Shown here: positions 33,264 to 61,691 of the stretch, piece after piece | How positions within the stretch are numbered: the first letter of the stretch is position 1 | Layout: each line of letters starts with the position of its first letter | Source of the DNA: a bacterium HR10 | GTDB taxonomy: Bacteria; Acidobacteriota; Blastocatellia; HR10 | DNA length: 64,000 nucleotides | Direction of reading: 5' to 3' | NCBI GenBank assembly: GCA_002923315.1 | Contig: BEHM01000002.1 | Span: 73,838 to 137,837, forward strand | Made by a program: the position numbers and the translations under genes | Notes under the pieces: generated by a model | What the model saw: only the letters and a program-made list of their open reading frames with translations | The model's database searches: none | Told to the model about the DNA's origin: nothing

Positions 33264-35654
33264 TCATCGCTTCAGAACAAACGTCCCGTCGTCTCGGCCC
33301 AGAAGCGCGACCAGGTTTCCGACAGGGAGACCAGCGACGGCGATGTCCAGCAATCCATCGTCATTGAAGTCGCCGAGCCCCAGTGAGACCGGCTCCGCGA
33401 TTGCCCGAAGCCGCCGAACCACACGTGGTCGTCCATCCTGGAAGCCGATGAACGTGACCGAGTTGCCCGTGAAGTTGGGAACGGCCACGCCGATCACCCC
33501 GTTGAAGAAGTCACCGCTGATGATGAACGTCGGACTCTCGATCGAGGGTACGTCCACGCGCGTGAAGCCGAGACTGCGGCTCTTGCCCTGGGAAAGGAGG
33601 AAGGTGATCGAATTCGAGAGGAAATTTGCGACGGCGACGTCCATCTGGCCATCCCGGTCGAAATCGCCCGTTGCGCTGGCCATCGGATACTCGCCGACGT
33701 CTCTCCGCCCGGCTTCGCTGAAGCGACCCCGGCCGTCTCCCTTGAAGAAGACGACCTCATTGGAGCCAATCGCCGTCACGATCAAATCCGGGACTCCGTC
33801 TTCATCCCAGTCCGCGACGACAACCGAGCTGGGCCTCCCATCAAACAGTGGAATGGTCGCCAGCGGGCGGAACGTCCCGTCGCCTCGGCCAAGCAGGATG
33901 GCGATGTCCGCCGATCCATTCTGCGCGACGGCCAGATCGAGCACCCCATCCTGATCGAAGTCGGCCAGAGCGACGGCGACAGGCTTTGTGCCGAAGAGTT
34001 GCAGCTGGCGCCCTTTCTGGAACGTCCCATCCCCATTGCCGAGGAAGATGGAGAGGCTGTCCGAGAGCGAGTTCACGACGACAGCATCGGTCTTGCCATC
34101 GTGATTGAAATCGCCCGCTTTCACGTCCACAGGACTCTGACCCGTACCGTAGGTCTTGAACCGTCGGAAGGTGCCATCGCCTTTGGAGAGGTAGACGCGC
34201 AATTGGTTCGACTCGGAGTCCACGAGCAACACGCCTTTGGGGACCGGCGCTGAGGCTGTCGTCTCACTGGCCGTCCGAATCGCACTGGCAGCGATGAACG
34301 CCGTTCCCACCGTGCTCGGCCGTCCGCGACTCGAAATCGAAGCGCTCGCTTGCTGAACGAAGGTGGGGGGACAACCGGGACGATCTCTGCCACCGCAGGG
34401 GTCGGGAGACCCCCAGGTTAATTCAACGGAGTTCATGAGCGGACCATGTCCGGTCGCGACGGCCGTGATGGTGATGGTGACGCTGGAGTGAGGCCCAACG
34501 CTTCCGCGGATGATGAGCTGGCCGTTTTGCACGCTCACCCATTGGGGCGGCGAAGCGGAGATCAGCTCCATGCCTGAGGGCATCTGCTCGACGAGGCTGA
34601 ACAACTGCGCCGTCGCACCGCTGTTGGCCACGGTGATCGTGCACGTGACCGGGAAGCCGGCAGCTACCGTCTTCGGCTCGCATCTCTTGGTCACCGAGAG
34701 ATTGGGTTTGCCCCCTCCGCCACTTCCACCGCCACCCTTGCACTCGTTCTCGTACGCGCATCGGAAGCCTTGGAAGACGCATCCTTTACCCGGCGGTTCG
34801 ACTATTTCCGGGTCCAAAAGCCATACGGGCTCATCAACAATGCCTCCAGAGGGGCACCGATCGGTACGGGTCAACGGCACATCTTCTGCTGCGCCGTCAC
34901 ATTCCCAGCGTGCCCAACACTGGCTCCTGAGGAAGGCACATTGGGGGGGGGTAGGAGGGACAAGAAAGTCCCTGTACGAAAGACAAATAGGCTCAGGAAG
35001 GATCCCCCCGATCGCCCCTGTACCCCCAAGAGTTGAGACATTGAACCGGCTTAGCGCACAAATGTTCCTCCCGGGATCGGGGCGGGCACAAGAGTAGGGA
35101 ATCATGAACGTCCCGTCGCCTCCATATACCCTTTTCTGGATCTCGATGGGAATCCCACCAGGAGCTTGATCGCGTGCCGGAGCATTCGTGAACGTGCACC
35201 AGACGGTTTGTCCCGGGTCAAGACGTGGGCCGCACATTTCAGGATCACCCAGCCTTCTGCCAGTTCTACAGAAGACATTCACCGTGCATTCAGGGCCGCT
35301 CAGCAGTTGCCATCCTGATGGGGGAGTCTCCACGATGTAGTACTGGCCGGGGATGAGGGGGACGGACTTGAAGGCGACCAAGGGGCATCCCCCTTTTGGC
35401 GTGAAGAAATCGTTGGGTTCAAGACCAACAACTGCTATCCACTGCCCGTTCTCGTCATAGATGTCGAAGCGAAAGCTGTCAGGGCTGCCACCTTGAATAC
35501 ATTTCTGCACGTACAAGGTCGCTGGCTCTTGGGCTGAGGCCATGAGCGAGTCACTCGGTCGCGAAGACCCCCAGATGAGGAATCCAAGGACGGCCACGGT
35601 GAGAAAAAGCCGCTGCCTGTGGCGTCGGCTTCTGGCACTCCTCAGTTGGTCCAT
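33264..35654 (-). CDS. secreted surface protein: prealbumin-fold module, Cys-rich region, Gly linker, DUF11-like module, C-terminal FG-GAP/VCBS propeller
   Basis: AAGGAGGAGG lies before the ATG. Signal-like LFLTVAVLGFLIWG. YYIVETPPSGWQ...TVWCTFTN is the same module type as in the giant protein. GGGGSGGGGK linker. LSVTKRCEPKTVAAGFPVTCTITVANSG is DUF11-like. Repeated GDFNHDGKTDAVVVN, ADFDQDGVLDLAVAQ, ADWDEDGVPDLIVTA, GDFDRDGQMDVAVAN, GDFNDDGLLDIAVAG motifs. Confidence 0.85.
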   Translation of the reverse strand: MDQLRSARSRRHRQRLFLTVAVLGFLIWGSSRPSDSLMASAQEPATLYVQKCIQGGSPDSFRFDIYDENGQWIAVVGLEPNDFFTPKGGCPLVAFKSVPLIPGQYYIVETPPSGWQLLSGPECTVNVFCRTGRRLGDPEMCGPRLDPGQTVWCTFTNAPARDQAPGGIPIEIQKRVYGGDGTFMIPYSCARPDPGRNICALSRFNVSTLGGTGAIGGILPEPICLSYRDFLVPPTPPQCAFLRSQCWARWECDGAAEDVPLTRTDRCPSGGIVDEPVWLLDPEIVEPPGKGCVFQGFRCAYENECKGGGGSGGGGKPNLSVTKRCEPKTVAAGFPVTCTITVANSGATAQLFSLVEQMPSGMELISASPPQWVSVQNGQLIIRGSVGPHSSVTITITAVATGHGPLMNSVELTWGSPDPCGGRDRPGCPPTFVQQASASISSRGRPSTVGTAFIAASAIRTASETTASAPVPKGVLLVDSESNQLRVYLSKGDGTFRRFKTYGTGQSPVDVKAGDFNHDGKTDAVVVNSLSDSLSIFLGNGDGTFQKGRQLQLFGTKPVAVALADFDQDGVLDLAVAQNGSADIAILLGRGDGTFRPLATIPLFDGRPSSVVVADWDEDGVPDLIVTAIGSNEVVFFKGDGRGRFSEAGRRDVGEYPMASATGDFDRDGQMDVAVANFLSNSITFLLSQGKSRSLGFTRVDVPSIESPTFIISGDFFNGVIGVAVPNFTGNSVTFIGFQDGRPRVVRRLRAIAEPVSLGLGDFNDDGLLDIAVAGLPVGNLVALLGRDDGTFVLKR

Positions 35655-55073: not shown

Positions 55074-56092
55074 CCGTCAGCTCGCTCGCCGGCGCGAAGC
55101 CTCGCGCTGCGCGCGCGAGGATTCTCCTGCACCTCCAAATCGCTCGGTCGCACCGCCCGAGGCGTCAGTAGCACGAGGCGTCGTGCTGCTCCGCACCGGG
55201 GGCAGGATTCCGTCTCACTGTGCGGGATCAGCCATCGAGCCGCACATTCGCAGTACCCAGCATGAACGCGCAATCTGCGCTTGATCACTCGATCCTCGAG
55301 CGAGTGAAACGCGATGATGACCACCCGCCCGCCGGGCGCAAGCCGCGCGATGGCCGTATCCAGGAAGTCCTCCAAACCTGACAGCTCCTCATTCACTGCG
55401 ATCCGGAGCGCCTGAAACGTCCGCGTCGCTGGATGCAGGCGCCCCCTTCGCCGACCCCCTACGGCGCGCGCGACGATCGCCGCCAGCTCGGTCGTCGTCC
55501 GAATCGGCCCGGCCTCCCGCGCTCGAACAATCGCCCGCGCGATCCGACGCGCCGCCGGTTCCTCCCCATAGCGGAAGATGAGATCGGCCAGCTCCCGCTC
55601 ACTCAGCGTGTTCACCAGATCGGCGGCCGTCACCGCCCGCCGCCGATCCATGCGCATGTCGAGCGGCCCTTCTTGCTGAAAGCTGAACCCTCGCTCGGCC
55701 GTCTCCAATTGAAGCGACGAGACGCCAAGGTCAACGAGAATCCCTTCGACCGTCTCAAGCCCAAGCCGGGTGAGGATCTCATCCAGGCGCTTGAAGTCCT
55801 CCTGTACGGGCAGGAACCGCTCCCCATACGCGCGCAGGCGCTCCCGCGCCAGAGCGAGCGCCTCCTCGTCCCAATCAATCCCGATCACGCGCACGCGCTC
55901 GGACGCCGAGAGCAACGCCTCCGCATGCCCGCCCGTCCCCACCGTGCAGTCCACGATCACGCCGTCCAAACACGGACGTAGCAGCTCGACGACCTCGCGC
56001 ACGAGCACCGGACGATGTCTCGCGCGCTCTGGGTCCACGCTAGATGCCCAACTTCGCAATGGCTGCCGCATCTTCCTTCGTGAAGACCCCAA
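55070..56092 (-). CDS. rsmH: 16S rRNA (cytosine1402-N4)-methyltransferase
   Basis: HRPVLVREVVELL, DCTVGTGGHAEALL, DLGVSSLQLE, FHSLEDRVIK. The start is uncertain: track ATG 56092 overlaps mraZ by 53 nt, and GTG 56038 (1 nt after the mraZ stop) is an alternative. Confidence 0.9.
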   Translation of the reverse strand: MGSSRRKMRQPLRSWASSVDPERARHRPVLVREVVELLRPCLDGVIVDCTVGTGGHAEALLSASERVRVIGIDWDEEALALARERLRAYGERFLPVQEDFKRLDEILTRLGLETVEGILVDLGVSSLQLETAERGFSFQQEGPLDMRMDRRRAVTAADLVNTLSERELADLIFRYGEEPAARRIARAIVRAREAGPIRTTTELAAIVARAVGGRRRGRLHPATRTFQALRIAVNEELSGLEDFLDTAIARLAPGGRVVIIAFHSLEDRVIKRRLRVHAGYCECAARWLIPHSETESCPRCGAARRLVLLTPRAVRPSDLEVQENPRARSARLRAGERADG

Positions 56093-56474
56093 GCTGCGCC
56101 TCGAACTTCTCCAGATTCCACACCTGAAGATAGGTGATGTAGCCCAGGACGGCGACCTCGCCGTTCAGTTCGGCTTTCGCCCGAAGCGGAGGATGGATGA
56201 GAATTCGCCCCTGCCCATCCATGGTCGCCTGCCGCCCGTAGAAGTTCGTCACCCGCAGGAACTTCTCCTTCACCGGATCCATCTCCGGCAGTTGGGCGAG
56301 CCGTTGCTCGATCTTCTCCCACTCCGGCAAGGGATAGAGCCGAACATGATCCCCATCTAGGCTCGTGACGAAGAATTCCGAGCCGTACTTTTGCAGGATG
56401 ATGTCGCGGAAGGCGGCTGGGATTTTGATCCGTCCCTTCTCATCAATGCGCGTCGTGTAGTTGCCGCGTAACAT
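56040..56474 (-). CDS. mraZ: transcriptional regulator MraZ
   Basis: MLRGNYTTRIDEKGRIKIPAAFR and the second half-domain DGQGRILIHPPLR (duplicated DxxxR/SpoVT-AbrB fold motifs). First gene of the dcw cluster; GAGGG SD. Confidence 0.95.
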   Translation of the reverse strand: MLRGNYTTRIDEKGRIKIPAAFRDIILQKYGSEFFVTSLDGDHVRLYPLPEWEKIEQRLAQLPEMDPVKEKFLRVTNFYGRQATMDGQGRILIHPPLRAKAELNGEVAVLGYITYLQVWNLEKFEAQLGVFTKEDAAAIAKLGI

Positions 56475-56548
56475 CTTAACCCTCAGCCACTTTCCGCGAT
56501 CTCTTGAAGTTGAGCTTTAACCGCCTGCTTCGGTCTCCGACCAGCGAA

Positions 56549-56572
56549 CCACTTTAGTCCACTTTAGTCCAC
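56549..56572 (-). promoter_or_regulatory. MraZ operator candidate: three GTGG boxes phased at 10 bp
   Basis: The minus strand reads GTGGactaaaGTGGactaaaGTGGttc (plus strand ccactttagt x2 + ccac). It lies directly downstream of the candidate -10 and 75-98 nt upstream of the mraZ ATG. Confidence 0.6.
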
Positions 56573-56579
56573 CTGGCGT

Positions 56580-56608
56580 ATGCTACGGAAAACGGCCCGC
56601 AGTGTCAA
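56580..56608 (-). promoter_or_regulatory. candidate Pmra promoter
   Basis: Minus strand: TTGACA (56608-56603), 17 nt (ctgcgggccgttttccg), TAGCAT (56585-56580). Confidence 0.5.
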
Positions 56609-56825
56609 GGAGAAAGTGTGCGCAGGGGGGCGGGTGCAGGGGCTTCGGGCTGGTTTTTCGGCAGCAACCGCCCTCGTGGGCACTCGCCGCCACTCAGAGG
56701 GTGCCCTTCGCCGTCGGTCGTCCTGGAACTCGTTTTCTATTCCGGATCAAAGGGCGACTTTGCCGTTCGATCCAGGGCCGACCAAGCTGCGCCGATGATG
56801 GGCGTCCGCCATAAACAATTGGGGC

Positions 56826-56858
56826 TTGACAGACAGACAGACAGACAGACAGTATAAT
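56826..56858 (+). promoter_or_regulatory. consensus -35/-10 promoter whose spacer is a tetranucleotide repeat
   Basis: TTGACA (56826-56831) and TATAAT (56853-56858) are separated by 21 nt made of GACA repeats. AAGGAGG lies 25 nt downstream of the -10, then ATG at 56897. Confidence 0.6.
56828..56852 (+). repeat. (GACA)x6 microsatellite
   Basis: gacagacagacagacagacagacag: six perfect GACA units plus a G. The first unit is part of the TTGACA hexamer. Confidence 0.95.
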
Positions 56859-56896
56859 GCCGGACCGTCAGGGAAGACTCTTAAGGAGGGACGACC

Positions 56897-57229
56897 ATGA
56901 GGAAGTTGAGCGTTCGACTCATCATGAACCTAGTCATCACCCTGATGGTCCTTTGGCCGCCCGCTCCACCTTCGGGAGCGGTATTAACTTCGCTAGCGCA
57001 GAGATGCGGCGGAGACTTCTCAGTCTCAAACATGGAACGCAGAGTTATTGGCATCGGTTTGCAAGGGACGACCTATACGCAGTGTGTATCCGTGTGTTCC
57101 CAAGAGGCCTATAATTGGACCACGAACGAGTGCATTCCAATTCTCCCAACTGGAACCGATTGGGTCTGTTACGTGATCTTAGCCTTTTGGGAGGCAGGAT
57201 GTGTGCTCATCTGCCCGTTCATACCGTGA
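56897..57229 (+). CDS. small secreted/membrane Cys-rich protein (hypothetical)
   Basis: Strong SD (TTAAGGAGGG). MRKLSVRLIMNLVITLMVLWPPAPPSGA is a signal-like N-terminus. Seven Cys residues. Hydrophobic C-terminus WVCYVILAFWEAGCVLICPFIP. Lower GC than the surrounding genes. Confidence 0.6.
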   Translation: MRKLSVRLIMNLVITLMVLWPPAPPSGAVLTSLAQRCGGDFSVSNMERRVIGIGLQGTTYTQCVSVCSQEAYNWTTNECIPILPTGTDWVCYVILAFWEAGCVLICPFIP

Positions 57230-57298
57230 GTGCGAGATGAACAGGAAGGGGGGCTGGACCAACGTGCTTTGTTTCGAAGCACGCTCTCTGTAATTCCC

Positions 57299-58393
57299 AT
57301 GCGTCTTCAGAGCCTCAGCGGACAATATATAGAGGTACTGCTCGTACTCGCAGGGCTCTTGTGGCAACACGGGACTGTGCACTTGAGCTCTTCGCTCGTC
57401 CTCGTCCCCGTAGTCGTGCAGCAGAGGGATGGAACTCCGATCACGGACCTCACACAAGCGGACTTTCTGATTTATGAGGGAAAGAAGAGACGTTCTATCG
57501 CGTACTTTGACAAAGAGGAGCTGCCACTTCACATCGCGCTTGTCCTTGAACCTCCCAATGCATCTTCACAGGCCGAAGCTGAGCGGATGCGTGAGCAACT
57601 TAATCGCCCAGAGCGAGACGTCGCCCCTCCGGGGCTTCCCACTACTCAGGAGGAGTTTAGGCGTTGGGCAGCTATTCAGGTGGCTGCATTAAGAGTGCTC
57701 GAGGTCCTCGGTTCCAACGATGGAGTGGCTCTCTTCACCACCTGTGGAGAGTTGCGGCATCCGTTGACGAATGATCTCGCCGTTATCCGGGAAAACATCC
57801 GTGAACTGGCTACGACGATTCAGATCTGCCCATCGGGTCATTTCTTAGATAGAGACGAACTCATTGCGATAAGCTCTTATCTGAGGCAAGCCTCTAGCGG
57901 ACGTTCACAGCGAGTGATCGTAATCATTTCGGACAATCATATCATGCCAAGGAAGCCCGCTCCCTCGCTCGATGAGGTGAGAAAGGCGATTCTCATGGCC
58001 AATGCTACGGTCTGTGGGATCGGCATTGAGAACCGAGGGTGTGCGACGTTTCGCCGAATGTCCATGGGGATAGCGCCTCCTCTTATCCCTCTCCTGCTCG
58101 CGTGGTTTAAGGACATCGCTTACTTTTCACAGATGAGCGGAGGGATCGTTGTGCCCGCCGATCCTTCTTCTTCTGCCGAGGCAATATCTCGCGCGACTTC
58201 GCTCGTTGGAGGCTTTCTTCAGAGGCTTCGTCAGAGTTACACTCTTGGTTTTTGGCCAGACGAGTCAACGGTCGGGGAGGTTCGAGAGATAAAAATCGAG
58301 TTGACTCCCCAAGCGCGAAAGAGATATCCGCATGTTCAGCTCCGTTACCGCCGAAGTTATGTGATCACCGAGCGGTCACGGGCTTCTCGGTGA
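57299..58393 (+). CDS. VWA-domain protein of the 'VWFA-related Acidobacterial domain' type
   Basis: LVLVPVVVQQRDGTPITDLTQADFLIYEGKKRRSIAYF matches the characteristic N-terminal beta-sandwich motif of that family. It continues IALVLE..., GVALFTT..., VIVIISDNH (VWA-like), and the C-terminal YTLGFWPDES...IKIELTP...VQLRYRRSY. The start is uncertain (GTG 57230 per the track, or ATG 57299). Confidence 0.75.
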   Translation: MRLQSLSGQYIEVLLVLAGLLWQHGTVHLSSSLVLVPVVVQQRDGTPITDLTQADFLIYEGKKRRSIAYFDKEELPLHIALVLEPPNASSQAEAERMREQLNRPERDVAPPGLPTTQEEFRRWAAIQVAALRVLEVLGSNDGVALFTTCGELRHPLTNDLAVIRENIRELATTIQICPSGHFLDRDELIAISSYLRQASSGRSQRVIVIISDNHIMPRKPAPSLDEVRKAILMANATVCGIGIENRGCATFRRMSMGIAPPLIPLLLAWFKDIAYFSQMSGGIVVPADPSSSAEAISRATSLVGGFLQRLRQSYTLGFWPDESTVGEVREIKIELTPQARKRYPHVQLRYRRSYVITERSRASR

Positions 58394-58543
58394 GAGGAAG
58401 CCTGTTGTATTGAGATCTCGCATTGTGTTGGGCTTGGGACCGGGGGATGGGGTGGCTTATACTTTTCGCCCATTGCGCGCTCGTTTGTGCAACTATTCGT
58501 GGAATGGCTTGTGGTGAGTTGTGCGCCTTCAGGGGAGTAAGCT

Positions 58544-58648
58544 ATGAGATCTCAGAATTGGTGTGCCAATTGGCTCATCGCTTTTGCGGGAGCAGCGGCG
58601 TTCCTTTTAGGGAGCTTCGTCGTCGCGAGCTTCGTGACGGATCGTTGA
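58544..58648 (+). CDS. possible 34-aa hydrophobic peptide (very tentative)
   Basis: AGGGGAG lies 7 nt before the ATG. MRSQNWCANWLIAFAGAAAFLLGSFVVASFVTDR has a single TM-like helix. It is below the ORF-track size cutoff and there is no other support. Confidence 0.2.
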   Translation: MRSQNWCANWLIAFAGAAAFLLGSFVVASFVTDR

Positions 58649-58925
58649 CGGGCGGCAAGGGCCATTGCGTTGAGCGGCGCGGTATCCTTCGGTATCGCAT
58701 ATCTGGTTGCACCCTCTCGGGCGCGGCTGCATCAGGGCAAGTGATCGTCGCTGTGAGGTCTGCGATCAGTTCGATGCTTGTACGGATCTCCGCTTCCGGC
58801 GGTCCATCTTTCGCTTGTCATCAACAGTATGGGGACCTCTTGCCTTTGGCCGATGGGCATCTCTGTGGATATGATTTGTGCCGTAGCGTTCATTGGGTGT
58901 TGAGCCTTTCGCTGAAGGAGGGCCG

Positions 58926-59771
58926 ATGAGGGATCGAGCCTTCGCACTCTCAGTTCTCTGCCTCTTCCTTCTGTGGGGGTCGGAGGGCATCTCCTTAGGA
59001 CAGACTCCGTCGGGAGGGGGCGCGCGGGAGGAGATTGTTCGCTTCTCCAGATTTTACCCTCTGCTGAATCGGCGAGTGACGTTCGATGCGCGCCCTCGTC
59101 CGCGTGAGATCCTTGTCCGGATTGACGGTCTCAGACTCGATGACGTGCTCGTTATACGCGGCCAGGGAGAGGTGCTGAGCATTTGGGCCGGCTACGCCTC
59201 GGGGCGTTTGGGCGATCTTCTTCAACGAGGGGGATTGGACGTTCACCCGCTCCCCTCTTCGTGCGTGCGCGTGGAGGGAACGACCGTGAGCGTGCGGCGT
59301 CCTGAGGAGATCGAGGGGATCGTCTTCGTTGACCTTCAGGTCCCCAAGGATACGCGCGTTCACCTGGTGCGAGATGGGCAGACGCTGCTGCGCGCGCGGG
59401 TGAGCGAGCCCATCGCCCTTCGGGAGGGCGCCTTGGCGCCGGGATCACGGAATCCCGCCGAGACCGTTTTACGCGCGGTCTTCGGGGGGAACGCCCCCGA
59501 TGTGCTCCGACCGCCCTCTCCGGACCAACCCTACATCGTGTCGTTTCACCGATTGACGATCCGCAAGAGGGTGCCGGTGAGTATCCCCCGAGGGGAGAGA
59601 CTCGTCGTGCTCTTTGTGATCAACGCCGATGGAACCGTTGCTCAGGTGGTCTCTCTGGAGCCGGAGACGGTCGCTCCTGAGGTGGAACAGGCCTTGCGGC
59701 AATGGGAGTTCGAGCCCTTCGTCTATGAGGGGCGTGCCGTCTCGGTGAAGACGCTCGCCCTCATTCGGTGA
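58926..59771 (+). CDS. secreted protein with C-terminal TonB-C-like domain (hypothetical)
   Basis: GAAGGAGGG lies before ATG 58926. Signal peptide MRDRAFALSVLCLFLLWGSEGISLG. The C-terminus RGERLVVLFVINADGTVAQVVSLEPETVAPEVEQALRQWEFEPFVYEGRAV resembles the TonB C-terminal fold. Confidence 0.65.
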   Translation: MRDRAFALSVLCLFLLWGSEGISLGQTPSGGGAREEIVRFSRFYPLLNRRVTFDARPRPREILVRIDGLRLDDVLVIRGQGEVLSIWAGYASGRLGDLLQRGGLDVHPLPSSCVRVEGTTVSVRRPEEIEGIVFVDLQVPKDTRVHLVRDGQTLLRARVSEPIALREGALAPGSRNPAETVLRAVFGGNAPDVLRPPSPDQPYIVSFHRLTIRKRVPVSIPRGERLVVLFVINADGTVAQVVSLEPETVAPEVEQALRQWEFEPFVYEGRAVSVKTLALIR

Positions 59772-59888: not shown

Positions 59889-61691
59889 CTACGGATCGCG
59901 CGGCCGAGGGGGAATCACTATGGGGTTCTCAATCAAGTGGGGCTCGATCACTCCATCAGAGGGGACGTACCGACTTCCTCCCTCTCGGTGATTGCGCGCC
60001 CACTTTCGTGGGACCTTCTCGATTCCGATCGGGTAGATCGTGAGCTGACCGCGCTCGTCCAGGTGCAGGCGCAGGAAGTTCTTGTAATCCTCGATGCGGA
60101 GCGCGGAGAAGGCTTCGTTGGCGTGCTGCCCGAAGATGTTCAGCGAGAGCAGTAGGTACGCTCCCATGATCCACGATCCGATCCCCCACCCCCACAGGAA
60201 CGTTATCCCCGTTGCGGTGAAGAAATAACCGACCGATGGATGCTGATCCGGGAGTCCCCAGAGGCGCACGCTCGCGCGATGGGCCATCCACGCGCCGATC
60301 AACGCGGCGAGCAGATGCACCAGGGCATGGGCCGACCCGGCGATGTTGAAGACTCCAAGGAGCTTCCACTTCCAGAGACCACGGGAAAGCGCCCTCCACA
60401 TGCGACGCATCTTGCCGGAGACGCCCGTTTGGATGATGCGGCTTTCGTTCACATCATCCTGGTCGGTGAAGAGGCAGAAGACGAAGACGATCATCAAAAG
60501 CCAAATGATCGCCGACGGAGTGATGACGAGCCTATGGAGCGAGTCTGTGACCGCTTCCCAGAGCGACTCGAACCTGTAGAGTTGGTGTGGCATCGTCCAG
60601 CTCAATGCGGCATAGGCGGCTCCAGGGAGAATCCCGAACCGGAAATTGCGGATCGGGAACAGCAGGTTTCGCCACGTGAGGCGGCGAGATGTCTGGCGAT
60701 CGGGGAATTCTGCGGCTAGGCGGAACCACGCGCCGTCATAGTGGATTTGATCCACATTGGGGCCGTGGGTCGGGTGGAGAAAGGCGCCGCCTCCGCCGGC
60801 GATGATCAGATGGACCTTCGACCCGTCAGCAGTCTCGTGTTCGTGTCGCCGATAGTGATGGATGTCGCCCGTGAGCCGGAGGACGATGCGCGCGCCTCTT
60901 GGCGCGAGGATCTTCCGCTCGAAGTAGCGCAGATTCGCCGCGAGCTCGGCGCCATAGATCCAGTCGGGTTTCGGCGTGCAGAGGATGACGCGATCTCCGG
61001 GCGCCATCTGTTGGGCGATGGTCTGAAAATACTCGAGTTGCGGCCCGTCAATGTCGGCTTCCAGTTGAATGTCCACGCCAAGGAGCCACCAGCCGTGCGG
61101 AAGCTTGAGGGCGAAGTAACTGCGCGTTTGCGGGAGCTGCCATCCACCGATCCATCGAGGTGGCGTCTTCTGGCAGAACAAGCGCGTGAAGCTGACCAAG
61201 CCATCATACCAATCGTGGTTGCCGGGAAGCGCGAAGAGATGGGGATGCGGGGGATCCGACCACGGGAAGGCGGCTTCGTACGGAGCAACGAGCCGTCGCT
61301 CGTATTCCTCCCGGCTCGCCACCGGATAGACTTCGTCTCCCCCCATGATGAGGAGATCGCCGCGTCGCGTCTCGATCATTTGTCCATCTGAGCGTCGCAC
61401 GCTCAGCCTCTCCTGCGCCAGACAATAAGCCACGGCGTACGTCGAATTCCAGCCATCACCGAGATCAGCCACATAATCCATCCACAGCTCGCGCCGATCG
61501 CTGTAATCGAACACCTGCTGCTCCTCCCGCAGACCCGCCAGGATGATCCGAGCATCAGCGCGCGAACCCCAGATGGTCGAAGCGAGGACCTGAATGCCGG
61601 TTCTGATGAGCTGTCTCGGGTCGTACCAGTGAACCATCTCGGGTTTTGAGGGGGCGCATTCCTCTCTTCGGATCAGATCCTCTTCTCTCAC
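59889..61691 (-). CDS. calcineurin-like metallophosphoesterase fused to a C-terminal multi-TM domain
   Basis: YVADLGDGWNS, IMGGDEVYP, LPGNHDWYDG, LTGDIHHYRRH, IAGGGGAFLHPTH. Several hydrophobic helices follow (IIWLLMIVFVFCLF, LLGVFNIAGSAHALVHLLAALIGAW, ITFLWGWGIGSWIMGAYLLLSL). Confidence 0.8.
   Translation of the reverse strand: MREEDLIRREECAPSKPEMVHWYDPRQLIRTGIQVLASTIWGSRADARIILAGLREEQQVFDYSDRRELWMDYVADLGDGWNSTYAVAYCLAQERLSVRRSDGQMIETRRGDLLIMGGDEVYPVASREEYERRLVAPYEAAFPWSDPPHPHLFALPGNHDWYDGLVSFTRLFCQKTPPRWIGGWQLPQTRSYFALKLPHGWWLLGVDIQLEADIDGPQLEYFQTIAQQMAPGDRVILCTPKPDWIYGAELAANLRYFERKILAPRGARIVLRLTGDIHHYRRHEHETADGSKVHLIIAGGGGAFLHPTHGPNVDQIHYDGAWFRLAAEFPDRQTSRRLTWRNLLFPIRNFRFGILPGAAYAALSWTMPHQLYRFESLWEAVTDSLHRLVITPSAIIWLLMIVFVFCLFTDQDDVNESRIIQTGVSGKMRRMWRALSRGLWKWKLLGVFNIAGSAHALVHLLAALIGAWMAHRASVRLWGLPDQHPSVGYFFTATGITFLWGWGIGSWIMGAYLLLSLNIFGQHANEAFSALRIEDYKNFLRLHLDERGQLTIYPIGIEKVPRKWARNHREGGSRYVPSDGVIEPHLIENPIVIPPRPRDP

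What the first reader, a model, noticed from the sequence alone, without database searches (positions are those of the whole stretch)
56826..56858. (GACA)x6 repeat forms the spacer between perfect TTGACA and TATAAT hexamers: candidate phase-variable or rheostat promoter
Seen: ggggcTTGACAgacagacagacagacagacagTATAATgcc. Both hexamers are perfect consensus. The spacer is 21 nt as sequenced, and removing exactly one GACA unit gives the optimal 17 nt. At the present length the hexamer sitting 17 nt upstream of the -10 is CAGACA (4/6), because every repeat unit regenerates the GACA of the -35. Unit gain or loss would therefore toggle promoter strength rather than destroy it. The promoter drives a strong-SD gene for a small Cys-rich exported protein followed by a VWA protein, both lower in GC than the flanks.

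Established: repeat tracts in promoter spacers, such as TA repeats at H. influenzae hif and homopolymers at N. meningitidis porA/opc, are classical phase-variation switches. I am not aware of this being described for a tetranucleotide spacer in a GC-rich, Acidobacteria-like genome.
Basis: partly seen in the sequence, partly recalled or inferred. Interest (0 to 1): 0.8.

Follow-up and report, generated by a model that had tools for sequence, protein, structure and literature searches.

The report
Variable GACA repeat inside a promoter
In an uncultivated hot-spring acidobacterium, a GACA repeat sits between the two recognition boxes of a promoter and changes copy number between otherwise identical genomes, so it probably sets how strongly a small secreted-protein gene is transcribed: a known bacterial trick in an unusual form and host.

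Summary
In detail: TTGACA (56826-56831), a 21-nt spacer made of GACA units, and TATAAT (56853-56858). (GACA)6 is the only tetranucleotide repeat above 3 units in the 64 kb.

The window is 'bacterium HR10' (GTDB order HR10 / GAL08, Blastocatellia, hot springs). The same promoter block occurs in eight related lineages, with 2, 2, 3, 6, 6, 6 (with small variants), 7 and 9 units.

Two metagenome contigs are identical over 6435 nt except for one GACA unit (7 vs 6), so the tract mutates faster than its surroundings. TTGGGGCTT-(GACA)n-GTATAATGC..CCGTCAG is invariant, while DNA further upstream has diverged.

In all five long-tract lineages the first gene is intact. It encodes a small Cys-rich protein with a signal peptide. 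In all three short-tract lineages (n=2, 2, 3) it is broken by a different lesion, and no promoter is recognised.

By sequence, n=5 gives the consensus promoter, every n>=6 gives CAGACA-17-TATAAT, and n<=4 gives no -35 box.

Verdict: a real, mutable promoter repeat and a credible contingency/rheostat locus, a new variant of a known kind.

Not shown: any effect on expression, switching within a clone, or the n=5 allele, which was never seen. The observed 6, 7 and 9 alleles are predicted to be equivalent.

The parts
56819..56827 (+). Invariant upstream block TTGGGGCTT. Its last two T are the TT of the perfect -35. TTGGGG would itself sit 16 nt from the -10 when n=3.
   Evidence: 6/6 lineages are identical here, while positions further upstream fall to 3-4/6.
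56826..56831 (+). Perfect -35 hexamer TTGACA. It lies 21 nt from the -10 in this allele and would lie 17 nt away at n=5.
   Evidence: Conserved in all lineages.
56828..56852 (+). (GACA)6 + G, the variable tetranucleotide tract.
   Evidence: TRF. Chance expectation 0.02. Alleles of 2, 3, 6, 7 and 9 units elsewhere. A single-unit difference in an otherwise identical 6435 nt.
56830..56835 (+). CAGACA, the hexamer actually sitting 17 nt upstream of the -10 in this allele (4/6). It is regenerated by the repeat for every n>=6.
   Evidence: Promoter scan, 10/12. Register table.
56853..56858 (+). Perfect -10 hexamer TATAAT. The TSS is inferred at about 56863-56865.
   Evidence: Invariant in all lineages. 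The TSS is an inference from spacing only.
56859..56896 (+). Short 5' leader. GCCGGACCGTCAGG (56859-56872) is nearly invariant. Shine-Dalgarno AAGGAGG is at 56883-56889.
   Evidence: No Rfam family in 56300-57400.
56897..57229 (+). First gene: a 110-aa protein with a signal-peptide-like N-terminus, 7 Cys and a hydrophobic C-terminus. It is an orphan family confined to this clade (HRbin10_00307).
   Evidence: dN/dS is 0.28-0.41 between intact lineages. No Pfam, NCBIfam or PADLOC hit.
57299..58393 (+). Second gene: a 364-aa acidobacterial VWFA-related protein (TIGR03436), probably co-transcribed.
   Evidence: 82.6 bits, cut-off 81.25. JGI names it 'VWFA-related protein'. dN/dS 0.17-0.24. Co-transcription is inferred: the gap is 69 nt and no promoter or terminator is called between the genes.

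Best explanation
The tract is a slippage-prone simple-sequence repeat built into the -35/-10 spacer of the sigma-70-type promoter of a two-gene operon (small exported Cys-rich protein, then a VWFA-related protein). Gain or loss of GACA units by slipped-strand mispairing changes which hexamer lies 17 nt upstream of the fixed TATAAT.

- At n=5 it is the perfect TTGACA, giving maximal promoter strength.
- At any n>=6 the repeat itself supplies CAGACA, giving an intermediate strength that does not depend on length.
- At n<=4 there is no usable -35, so expression is basal or off. n=3 places TTGGGG at 16 nt.

The locus therefore behaves as a heritable, reversible three-level switch (a contingency locus). 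The common n=6 allele is poised one slippage step from full ON.

Shown here: the tract's position, its unit-wise length polymorphism, conservation of the block, and the association of tract length with gene integrity.

Inferred: that this is the operative promoter, that RNA polymerase reads the registers as predicted, that switching occurs within populations at useful frequency, and that it is adaptive.
For: (1) Anatomy. Perfect TTGACA and TATAAT flank the tract, and this is the only + strand promoter-like site upstream of a gene with a strong SD. The divergent mraZ promoter in the same intergenic region is TTGACA-17-TAGCAT and is conserved in the distant lineages L104 and L019. So this clade appears to use the canonical hexamers and 17-nt spacing.

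(2) Mutability. L002 (7 units) differs from L004 and L005 (6 units) by 0 mismatches and one 4-nt gap in 6435 nt. L010 and L015 are also identical in their flanks. If mutations fell uniformly, the chance that the only difference falls in the 25-nt tract is 25/6435 = 0.4% (my arithmetic). Across lineages the alleles are 2, 2, 3, 6, 6, 6, 7 and 9, all but one in whole units.

(3) Maintenance. Long pure tracts exist in lineages separated by dS of about 0.8-1.2 (window vs L018). TTGGGGCTT-(GACA)n-GTATAATGC..CCGTCAG is invariant although the DNA further upstream has diverged. The TT of TTGACA is conserved even where n>=6 puts it out of register, as expected if the n=5 state is used.

(4) Coupling to the gene. 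In 5/5 long-tract lineages the first ORF is intact: window, P0002-type, HR08-type, L018 and P0005-type. In 3/3 short-tract lineages it is broken by a different lesion each time: an 11-nt deletion in L006-type, a 1-nt deletion in L104-type, and an ATG out of frame with the signal peptide in L009. Fisher exact p = 1/56 (my arithmetic, not corrected for phylogeny). The scan finds no + strand promoter in the n=3 and n=2 loci.

(5) The tract meets the published operational cut-off for a transcriptional phase-variable SSR: a tetranucleotide of >=5 units within 200 bp of the ATG (PMC5953494).

(6) The locus it controls is fast-evolving, low in GC and structurally variable between close lineages, as contingency loci typically are.
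Against: - No allele with n=5, the only state predicted to be fully ON, was seen in about 20 assemblies.
- The alleles seen in intact loci (6, 7, 9) are predicted to have the same core promoter, so the observed variation may have no phenotype.
- n=6 is modal in three lineages (HR10, P0002-type, HR08-type). This could simply mean low mutability and shared ancestry.
- Six units is short compared with classical Haemophilus tetranucleotide tracts.
- The VWFA gene stays intact under purifying selection in the n=3 lineage (dN/dS 0.18), where no promoter is recognised. So transcription there must come from somewhere, and the 'no -35 = off' step is uncertain.
- There are no expression, TSS or read-level data.
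- Only eight lineages were sampled, and L009 rests on one assembly.
- Short-read (Logan, k=31) contigs stop inside long tracts, but at 23-24 nt. My simulation of allele mixtures gives 21, 25, 29 or 30 nt instead, so that observation cannot be counted as evidence of within-sample heterogeneity.
Confidence: 0.55

Rival explanations
1. Buffered promoter with a neutral microsatellite. The tract is mutable, but because every n>=6 recreates CAGACA-17-TATAAT the promoter output is insensitive to tract length. The 6/7/9 polymorphism is then neutral drift, with no adaptive switching. n=5, a perfect consensus promoter driving an exported Cys-rich protein, would be deleterious and purged, which sets a floor at n=6.
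For: The register table shows identical cores for all n>=6. n=5 was never observed and n=6 is modal in three lineages. Only one within-lineage change was seen among 7 assemblies of the P0002-type lineage.
Against: It does not explain why TT of TTGACA and the further TTGGGGC stay invariant over dS of about 1 when they are out of register. It does not explain why the tract stays pure in most lineages. It does not explain why the tract has collapsed in exactly the three lineages whose first gene is broken. A floor at n=6 itself implies that n=5 differs in phenotype, which concedes the core of the main explanation.
Confidence: 0.25
2. Phasing device rather than a -35 switch. The invariant TTGGGGCTT block is a binding site for a regulator or a contact for the RNA polymerase alpha subunit. 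The repeat changes its distance and helical face relative to the core promoter (4 nt is about 137 degrees per unit). This would give quasi-periodic output, as at nadA (TAAA tract) or sabA (T tract).
For: Conservation extends 7 nt beyond the -35 hexamer. Published precedents show that tracts upstream of the operative -35 modulate output through spacing of operators or UP-like elements (PMC2791445; PMC4081817). For n>=6, part of the tract does lie upstream of the operative CAGACA.
Against: No regulator gene is linked. TTGGGGC is G-rich, unlike UP elements. No palindrome or direct-repeat operator is evident. The perfect TTGACA next to it is more simply read as a -35. Not tested experimentally.
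Confidence: 0.12
3. Not a functional element: a chance repeat or assembly artefact next to chance hexamers, with the downstream gene transcribed from elsewhere.
For: Consensus matches are not evidence of function. No transcript data exist. The VWFA gene persists in lineages where the promoter is not recognised.
Against: The tract and both perfect hexamers recur in more than 20 independent assemblies from JGI, ENA, NCBI and Logan. Chance expectation is 0.02 per window. The block is invariant amid diverged flanks.
Confidence: 0.03

Closest known systems
Haemophilus influenzae hifA/hifB fimbrial promoter, (TA)9-11 in the -35/-10 spacer (van Ham 1993, as summarised in PMC2651432)
   Same: A simple-sequence repeat forms the spacer between the -35 and -10 boxes. 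Unit gain or loss changes the spacing and so the transcription. It controls a surface or exported product.
   Different: The unit there is a dinucleotide, not a tetranucleotide. That repeat does not overlap or regenerate the -35 hexamer, so spacing alone matters and output falls off on both sides of the optimum. The hif tract serves two divergent overlapping promoters, whereas here the mraZ promoter is about 220 bp away. The host is a pathogen, and the mechanism has been shown experimentally.
Neisseria meningitidis porA / opc / fetA homopolymer tracts in promoter spacers (from my own knowledge, not checked in the library)
   Same: SSR length within the core promoter sets several expression levels rather than a plain on/off.
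   Different: Those are mononucleotide tracts changing in 1-nt steps, with no regeneration of the -35.
Neisseria meningitidis nadA, a (TAAA)n tract (PMC2791445)
   Same: A tetranucleotide promoter-associated tract. Natural isolates carry 4-13 units. Output is graded or quasi-periodic.
   Different: The TAAA tract lies distally upstream of the core promoter (about -55 to -85). It acts through the spacing of NadR operators, IHF and alpha-subunit contacts, not through the -35/-10 spacer.
Helicobacter pylori sabA T-tract 'rheostat' (PMC4081817)
   Same: A promoter-proximal SSR gives multiphasic output without a trans-acting factor.
   Different: The T-tract is adjacent to the -35, not inside the spacer. 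It acts by axial alignment of UP-like elements with the core promoter.
Haemophilus influenzae 5'-GACA tetranucleotide tracts in coding regions (e.g. a putative glycosyltransferase gene, PMC2651432)
   Same: The same repeat unit, which is a known slippage-prone contingency repeat.
   Different: Those tracts lie inside ORFs and act by translational frameshift. Here the tract is in a promoter.

Membership tests
SSR-mediated transcriptional phase variation through the promoter spacer (hif / porA / opc type) | The repeat tract lies between the -35 and -10 hexamers of the promoter of the controlled gene. | tested here: met
   By sequence: TTGACA, (GACA)n G, TATAAT, 38 nt upstream of an SD-preceded ATG. 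That this is the operative promoter is inferred.
SSR-mediated transcriptional phase variation through the promoter spacer (hif / porA / opc type) | Tract length varies in whole units between closely related genomes, faster than the flanking sequence. | tested here: met
   7 vs 6 units with 0 mismatches in 6435 nt. Alleles of 2, 3, 6, 7 and 9 units across lineages. One exception is a 1-nt deletion inside the tract in HR08.
SSR-mediated transcriptional phase variation through the promoter spacer (hif / porA / opc type) | Tract length is above the empirical mutability threshold and close to the start codon (tetranucleotide >=5 units, within 200 bp of the ATG; PhasomeIt criteria). | tested here: met
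   6 units, ending 45 nt before the ATG. Criteria from PMC5953494.
SSR-mediated transcriptional phase variation through the promoter spacer (hif / porA / opc type) | High-frequency, reversible length changes within a clonal population. | not testable with these tools
   No reads or cultures are available. Logan contig breaks at the tract are ambiguous.
SSR-mediated transcriptional phase variation through the promoter spacer (hif / porA / opc type) | Transcript or protein level changes with repeat number. | not testable with these tools
   Only an in-silico register table and the indirect association of short tracts with a broken first gene.
Promoter-proximal/distal SSR rheostats (sabA T-tract, nadA TAAA) | The tract lies upstream of the operative -35 and changes the alignment of upstream elements or operators with the core promoter. 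| tested here: inconclusive
   For n>=6, the part of the tract upstream of CAGACA displaces the invariant TTGGGGCTT block. No binding factor or UP-like A/T-rich element was identified.
Sigma-70-type promoter | A -35 and a -10 hexamer separated by 16-18 nt, upstream of a gene on the same strand. | tested here: met
   CAGACA-17-TATAAT, 10/12, in the sequenced allele. The perfect TTGACA is at 21 nt and so does not itself meet the spacing rule.
TIGR03436 acidobacterial VWFA-related proteins (second gene) | Score above the curated NCBIfam cut-off over the whole domain. | tested here: met
   82.6 bits against a cut-off of 81.25, residues 49-377 of the long ORF. This is marginal: there is no Pfam VWA hit, the AlphaFold model has pLDDT 44 and is unusable, and no PDB relative was found.

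The most novel reading that the evidence does not exclude
This may be the first contingency (phase-variable) locus described in Acidobacteria, and in a free-living thermophile community. It would use a mechanism not described before: a tetranucleotide repeat whose unit is the 3' two-thirds of the -35 hexamer. The promoter would therefore never be destroyed by expansion. It would instead toggle between consensus (n=5), self-regenerated intermediate (n>=6) and off (n<=4) states. The arrangement would have been kept by selection across lineages separated by about one synonymous substitution per site, and lost together with the gene it controls.
Probability: 0.35. Interest if true: 0.7.

Novelty: new variant of a known kind. 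Interest (0 to 1): 0.6.

Why it matters
Repeat-driven phase variation is textbook biology for host-adapted pathogens such as Haemophilus, Neisseria, Helicobacter, Campylobacter and Mycoplasma. It is hardly documented in free-living environmental bacteria. I found no report for Acidobacteria in the searched library, and none of a tetranucleotide tract forming a -35/-10 spacer.

If the switch works as predicted, stochastic bet-hedging on an exported protein also operates in hot-spring mats, perhaps against phage or other fluctuating pressures. The GAL08/HR10 clade is abundant but uncultivated (PMC8787282).

The design is also of interest in itself. A repeat that regenerates part of the -35 box gives a promoter that degrades gracefully instead of failing. 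That is easy to test, and to reuse, with synthetic constructs in E. coli.

The comparative pattern, in which the tract collapses wherever the gene is dead, is a rare natural hint that such tracts are maintained by selection.

Tried and rejected
- Rfam on 56300-57400 at E<=1 gave nothing, so the short leader holds no known riboswitch or sRNA.
- The small protein has no hit in Pfam, NCBIfam or PADLOC. The VWFA protein has only the marginal TIGR03436 hit, and there is no defence-system hit.
- An exhaustive HMMER search with the small protein found only 4 relatives, all in this clade, so function cannot be inferred by homology.
- AlphaFold models of both proteins had low confidence (pLDDT 57 and 44). 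I did not run fold searches, because the matches would be meaningless. A PDB sequence search found nothing.
- I first read the fact that all Logan k=31 contigs of long-tract lineages end inside the tract as evidence of within-sample heterogeneity. I withdrew this. The ends are uniform (23-24 nt of tract), whereas a de Bruijn simulation of allele mixtures gives 21, 25, 29 or 30 nt. One break (L107) is explained by a co-occurring lineage instead, and JGI sample 3300009855 holds both an n=6 and an n=3 lineage.
- A minus-strand promoter using the reverse of TATAAT is not supported.
- The 79-aa ORF that runs through the tract (56618-56857) is not conserved in the divergent lineages, and unit changes would shift its frame, so I treat it as spurious.
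- The genome-contig scan with the neighbouring 600-aa protein found only one close species (73% identity, the n=2 lineage). Everything else was at <=47% identity, so no more distant syntenic promoters could be compared.
- The ancestral tract length could not be resolved. Long-ancestral and short-ancestral scenarios each need two or more events.

Full report
**1. The observation**

The sequence at 56821-56861 reads GGGGC TTGACA GACAGACAGACAGACAGACAG TATAAT GCC.
- TTGACA occupies 56826-56831 and TATAAT 56853-56858. The 21 nt between them are five GACA units plus G.
- Counting the GACA inside the -35 box, the tract is (GACA)6 at 56828-56851. TRF gives 6.2 copies with 100% matches.
- A (GACA)4 pattern with up to two mismatches is expected 0.02 times in shuffles of the window and occurs only here.
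- It is the only tetranucleotide repeat above three units in the 64 kb, and in about 150 kb of related loci fetched later.
- The consensus scan calls CAGACA(56830)-17 nt-TATAAT as the only + strand promoter-like site in the intergenic region.
- A Shine-Dalgarno AAGGAGG (56883-56889) precedes the ATG at 56897.

**2. Context**

The tract lies in the 422-nt divergent intergenic region between two gene sets.
- On the minus strand is mraZ (56040-56474, Pfam MraZ E=1e-22). It heads a dcw cluster of rsmH, an ftsL-like gene, a PBP gene and a murE-like gene.
- On the plus strand is a pair of genes. The first encodes a 110-aa protein with a signal-peptide-like N-terminus, seven Cys and a hydrophobic C-terminus (56897-57229). 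The second encodes a 364-aa protein that just passes the curated cut-off of TIGR03436, 'acidobact_VWFA' (57299-58393).

GC drops to 53-58% over 56800-59000, against 64-70% around it.

The small protein is HRbin10_00307 of 'bacterium HR10'. HR10 is a GTDB order of Blastocatellia equivalent to the uncultivated hot-spring clade GAL08 (PMC8787282). The small protein is an orphan. A word-indexed search and an exhaustive HMMER search together found only six relatives, five of them in this clade.

**3. Related loci: the tract varies**

I used exact-protein look-ups and one metagenome DNA scan. These recovered the same promoter block from more than 20 independent assemblies, which fall into eight lineages.

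| Lineage | Loci | Tract |
|---|---|---|
| Window (HR10) | window | 6 units |
| P0002-type | L003/L013, L004/L014, L005, L010, L015, L016 | 6 units in six assemblies |
| P0002-type | L002 (JGI 3300007070) | 7 units |
| HR08-type | L109 | 6 units, with C instead of G before TATAAT |
| HR08-type | L108 | 6 units minus one G |
| Divergent lineage | L018 | 9 units |
| P0005-type | L021-L023 | at least 5.75 units (contigs end in the tract) |
| L006-type | four assemblies from four projects | 2 units |
| L009 | one assembly | 2 units |
| P0006-type | L104-L106 | 3 units |

(Tract counts.)

The most telling comparison is L002 against L004 and L005. Over 6435 aligned nt there are no mismatches and a single 4-nt gap, which is the extra GACA. 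L010 and L015 are likewise identical in their flanks. If mutations were spread uniformly, the chance that the only difference falls in the 25-nt tract is 0.4% (25/6435, my arithmetic). The four 2-unit assemblies are identical to each other, tract included, as expected for a tract too short to slip.

**4. The block is conserved and the tract is tied to the gene**

Six lineages were aligned on the tract. TTGGGGCTT immediately upstream, and GTATAATGC..CCGTCAG immediately downstream, are invariant. Positions further upstream fall to 3-4 of 6 identical.

Synonymous divergence between the window and L018 (n=9) is about 0.8-1.2. It is 0.4-0.75 to the L104 and L009 lineages, and 0.06-0.18 to the P0002-type and L006-type lineages.

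The small gene is under purifying selection between intact lineages (dN/dS 0.28-0.41), as is the VWFA gene (0.17-0.24).

In all five long-tract lineages the first ORF is intact and in frame with its SD-ATG. In all three short-tract lineages it is broken, each time by a different lesion:
- an 11-nt deletion in the L006-type;
- a 1-nt deletion in the L104-type, with the old C-terminus still readable in another frame;
- in L009, an ATG that is out of frame with the signal peptide and stops after 14 codons (one assembly only).

Five of five against none of three gives Fisher p = 1/56 (my arithmetic, with no phylogenetic correction). The promoter scan finds no + strand promoter in the n=3 and n=2 loci, while it still finds the mraZ promoter TTGACA-17-TAGCAT there. 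That conserved mraZ promoter is also my only internal evidence that this clade uses canonical hexamers at 17-nt spacing.

**5. How it most likely works**

With TATAAT fixed, the hexamer 17 nt upstream depends on n.
- n=5 gives TTGACA (6/6).
- Every n>=6 gives CAGACA (4/6), because the repeat unit is the GACA of the -35 box.
- n<=4 gives no match better than 1-2 of 6 at 17 nt. n=3 places TTGGGG at 16 nt. n=2 places TAAACA or TAGACA at 19 nt.

So the tract should give three output classes, not a periodic series. The modal n=6 allele sits one slippage step from the consensus promoter. This matches the logic of spacer-located repeats at hifA/hifB (PMC2651432), with one added feature: expansion cannot destroy the promoter.

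Conservation of the out-of-register TT, purity of the tract over long divergence, and collapse of the tract wherever the gene is dead all fit a tract maintained by selection for switching. I put this at 0.55.

**6. What argues against, and the rivals**

- n=5 was never seen.
- The alleles seen in intact loci (6, 7, 9) are predicted to be equivalent.
- n=6 is modal in three lineages, which could mean modest mutability.
- The VWFA gene stays under purifying selection in the n=3 lineage, so some transcription persists without a recognisable -35.

The rivals are as follows.
- A 'buffered promoter with a neutral microsatellite' is therefore a serious rival (0.25). Even so, a floor at n=6 implies that n=5 is phenotypically different.
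- The invariant TTGGGGC beyond the -35 hexamer suggests a second possibility (0.12). The tract may phase an upstream site against the core promoter, as at nadA (TAAA tract between NadR operators; PMC2791445) or sabA (T-tract aligning UP-like elements; PMC4081817).
- Chance or artefact is excluded by the recurrence of the block (0.03).

**7. A withdrawn line of evidence**

Every Logan (k=31) contig of a long-tract lineage stops inside the tract (L001, L007, L008, L017, L021, L023). Logan contigs of the 2-unit lineage read through it (L019, L020). A clonal (GACA)6 should not break a 31-mer graph, so something is unresolved there.

However, the ends are uniform, with 23-24 nt of tract. Simulated mixtures of perfect alleles give 21, 25, 29 or 30 nt. 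Different lineages also co-occur in one sample: JGI 3300009855 holds both n=6 and n=3. The L107 break is explained that way. I therefore do not count the breaks as evidence of within-clone heterogeneity.

**8. Comparison with the known, and novelty**

The locus meets the sequence-level criteria of a transcriptional phase-variable SSR: a tetranucleotide of >=5 units within 200 bp of the ATG (PMC5953494). It also shows unit-wise polymorphism. The behavioural criteria, within-clone switching and an expression change, cannot be tested here.

In the searched library I found no tetranucleotide tract forming a -35/-10 spacer. I also found no SSR phase variation reported for Acidobacteria. Absence from that library is not proof.

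I rate it a new variant of a known kind, with interest 0.6. It is a credible and easily testable contingency promoter with an unusual self-regenerating -35, in an unusual free-living host. Its phenotypic effect is unproven.

Noticed in passing
window 56549-56608 (minus strand): (CCACTTTAGT)x2.4 at 56549-56572 reads GTGGACTAAAGTGGACTAAAGTGG on the minus strand. It lies just downstream of a minus-strand promoter TTGACA-17-TAGCAT (56608..56580) and upstream of mraZ. These look like MraZ autoregulatory boxes (GTGG repeats at 10-bp spacing). Repeat and promoter are identical in all aligned lineages, and the promoter is found again in the distant L104 and L019.
   Followed up: partly
window 56897-59771; L002, L009, L021, L022, L018: The gene content downstream of the promoter differs between close lineages. 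The window has the small ORF, VWFA and a TonB_C-like gene. P0002-type has the small ORF and VWFA only. P0005-type has a different Cys-rich 98-aa ORF and the TonB_C-like gene, without VWFA. L009 has a 256-aa protein with a Cys/Gly-rich tail (CGILCGGLCGLGCGLAC...). The signal-peptide segment is shared by all of them. The DNA on this side is 89-91% identical between lineages that are 96-97% identical on the mraZ side.
   Followed up: partly
L006/L011/L019/L020 (n=2), L104-L106 (n=3), L009 (n=2): The small first gene is a pseudogene in each short-tract lineage, through three different lesions, while the VWFA gene behind it stays intact. VWFA dN/dS against the window is 0.56 in the L006-type and 0.18 in the L104-type. 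What transcribes the VWFA gene there is unknown.
   Followed up: partly
L001, L007, L008, L017, L021, L023 (contig ends): Logan k=31 contigs end inside the tract at an almost fixed point, with 23-24 nt of repeat plus 7-8 nt of flank, which is one 31-mer. A simulation of allele mixtures does not reproduce this. It may be an assembler effect on low-complexity k-mers.
   Followed up: partly
window 34943-34951: A G9 run (C9 on the coding strand) lies about 234 codons into a 796-aa FG-GAP/DUF11 repeat protein gene (33264-35654, minus strand), which looks like a surface protein. It could in principle frameshift. However, a run of this length is about what chance gives in a genome of about 66% GC (roughly 6 expected per 64 kb by my estimate, 1 seen).
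   Followed up: partly
L108 (GCA_002898775.1, bacterium HR08) and L109 (ENA ERZ1669417): Two assemblies of the HR08-type lineage differ within the tract in non-unit ways. L108 has GACAGACAGACA-ACAGACAGACAG, with one G missing and a 20-nt spacer. L109 has (GACA)6 followed by C instead of G before TATAAT. These are either real interruptions, which would stabilise the tract, or assembly errors.
   Followed up: no
window 59889-61691 (minus strand): A 600-aa protein has a weak calcineurin-like phosphoesterase N-terminal half and a multi-pass membrane C-terminal half. It has more than 570 relatives at 36-47% identity across Acidobacteriota, Myxococcota, Bacteroidota and Proteobacteria, and no informative family name. 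It is a widespread uncharacterised family.
   Followed up: no
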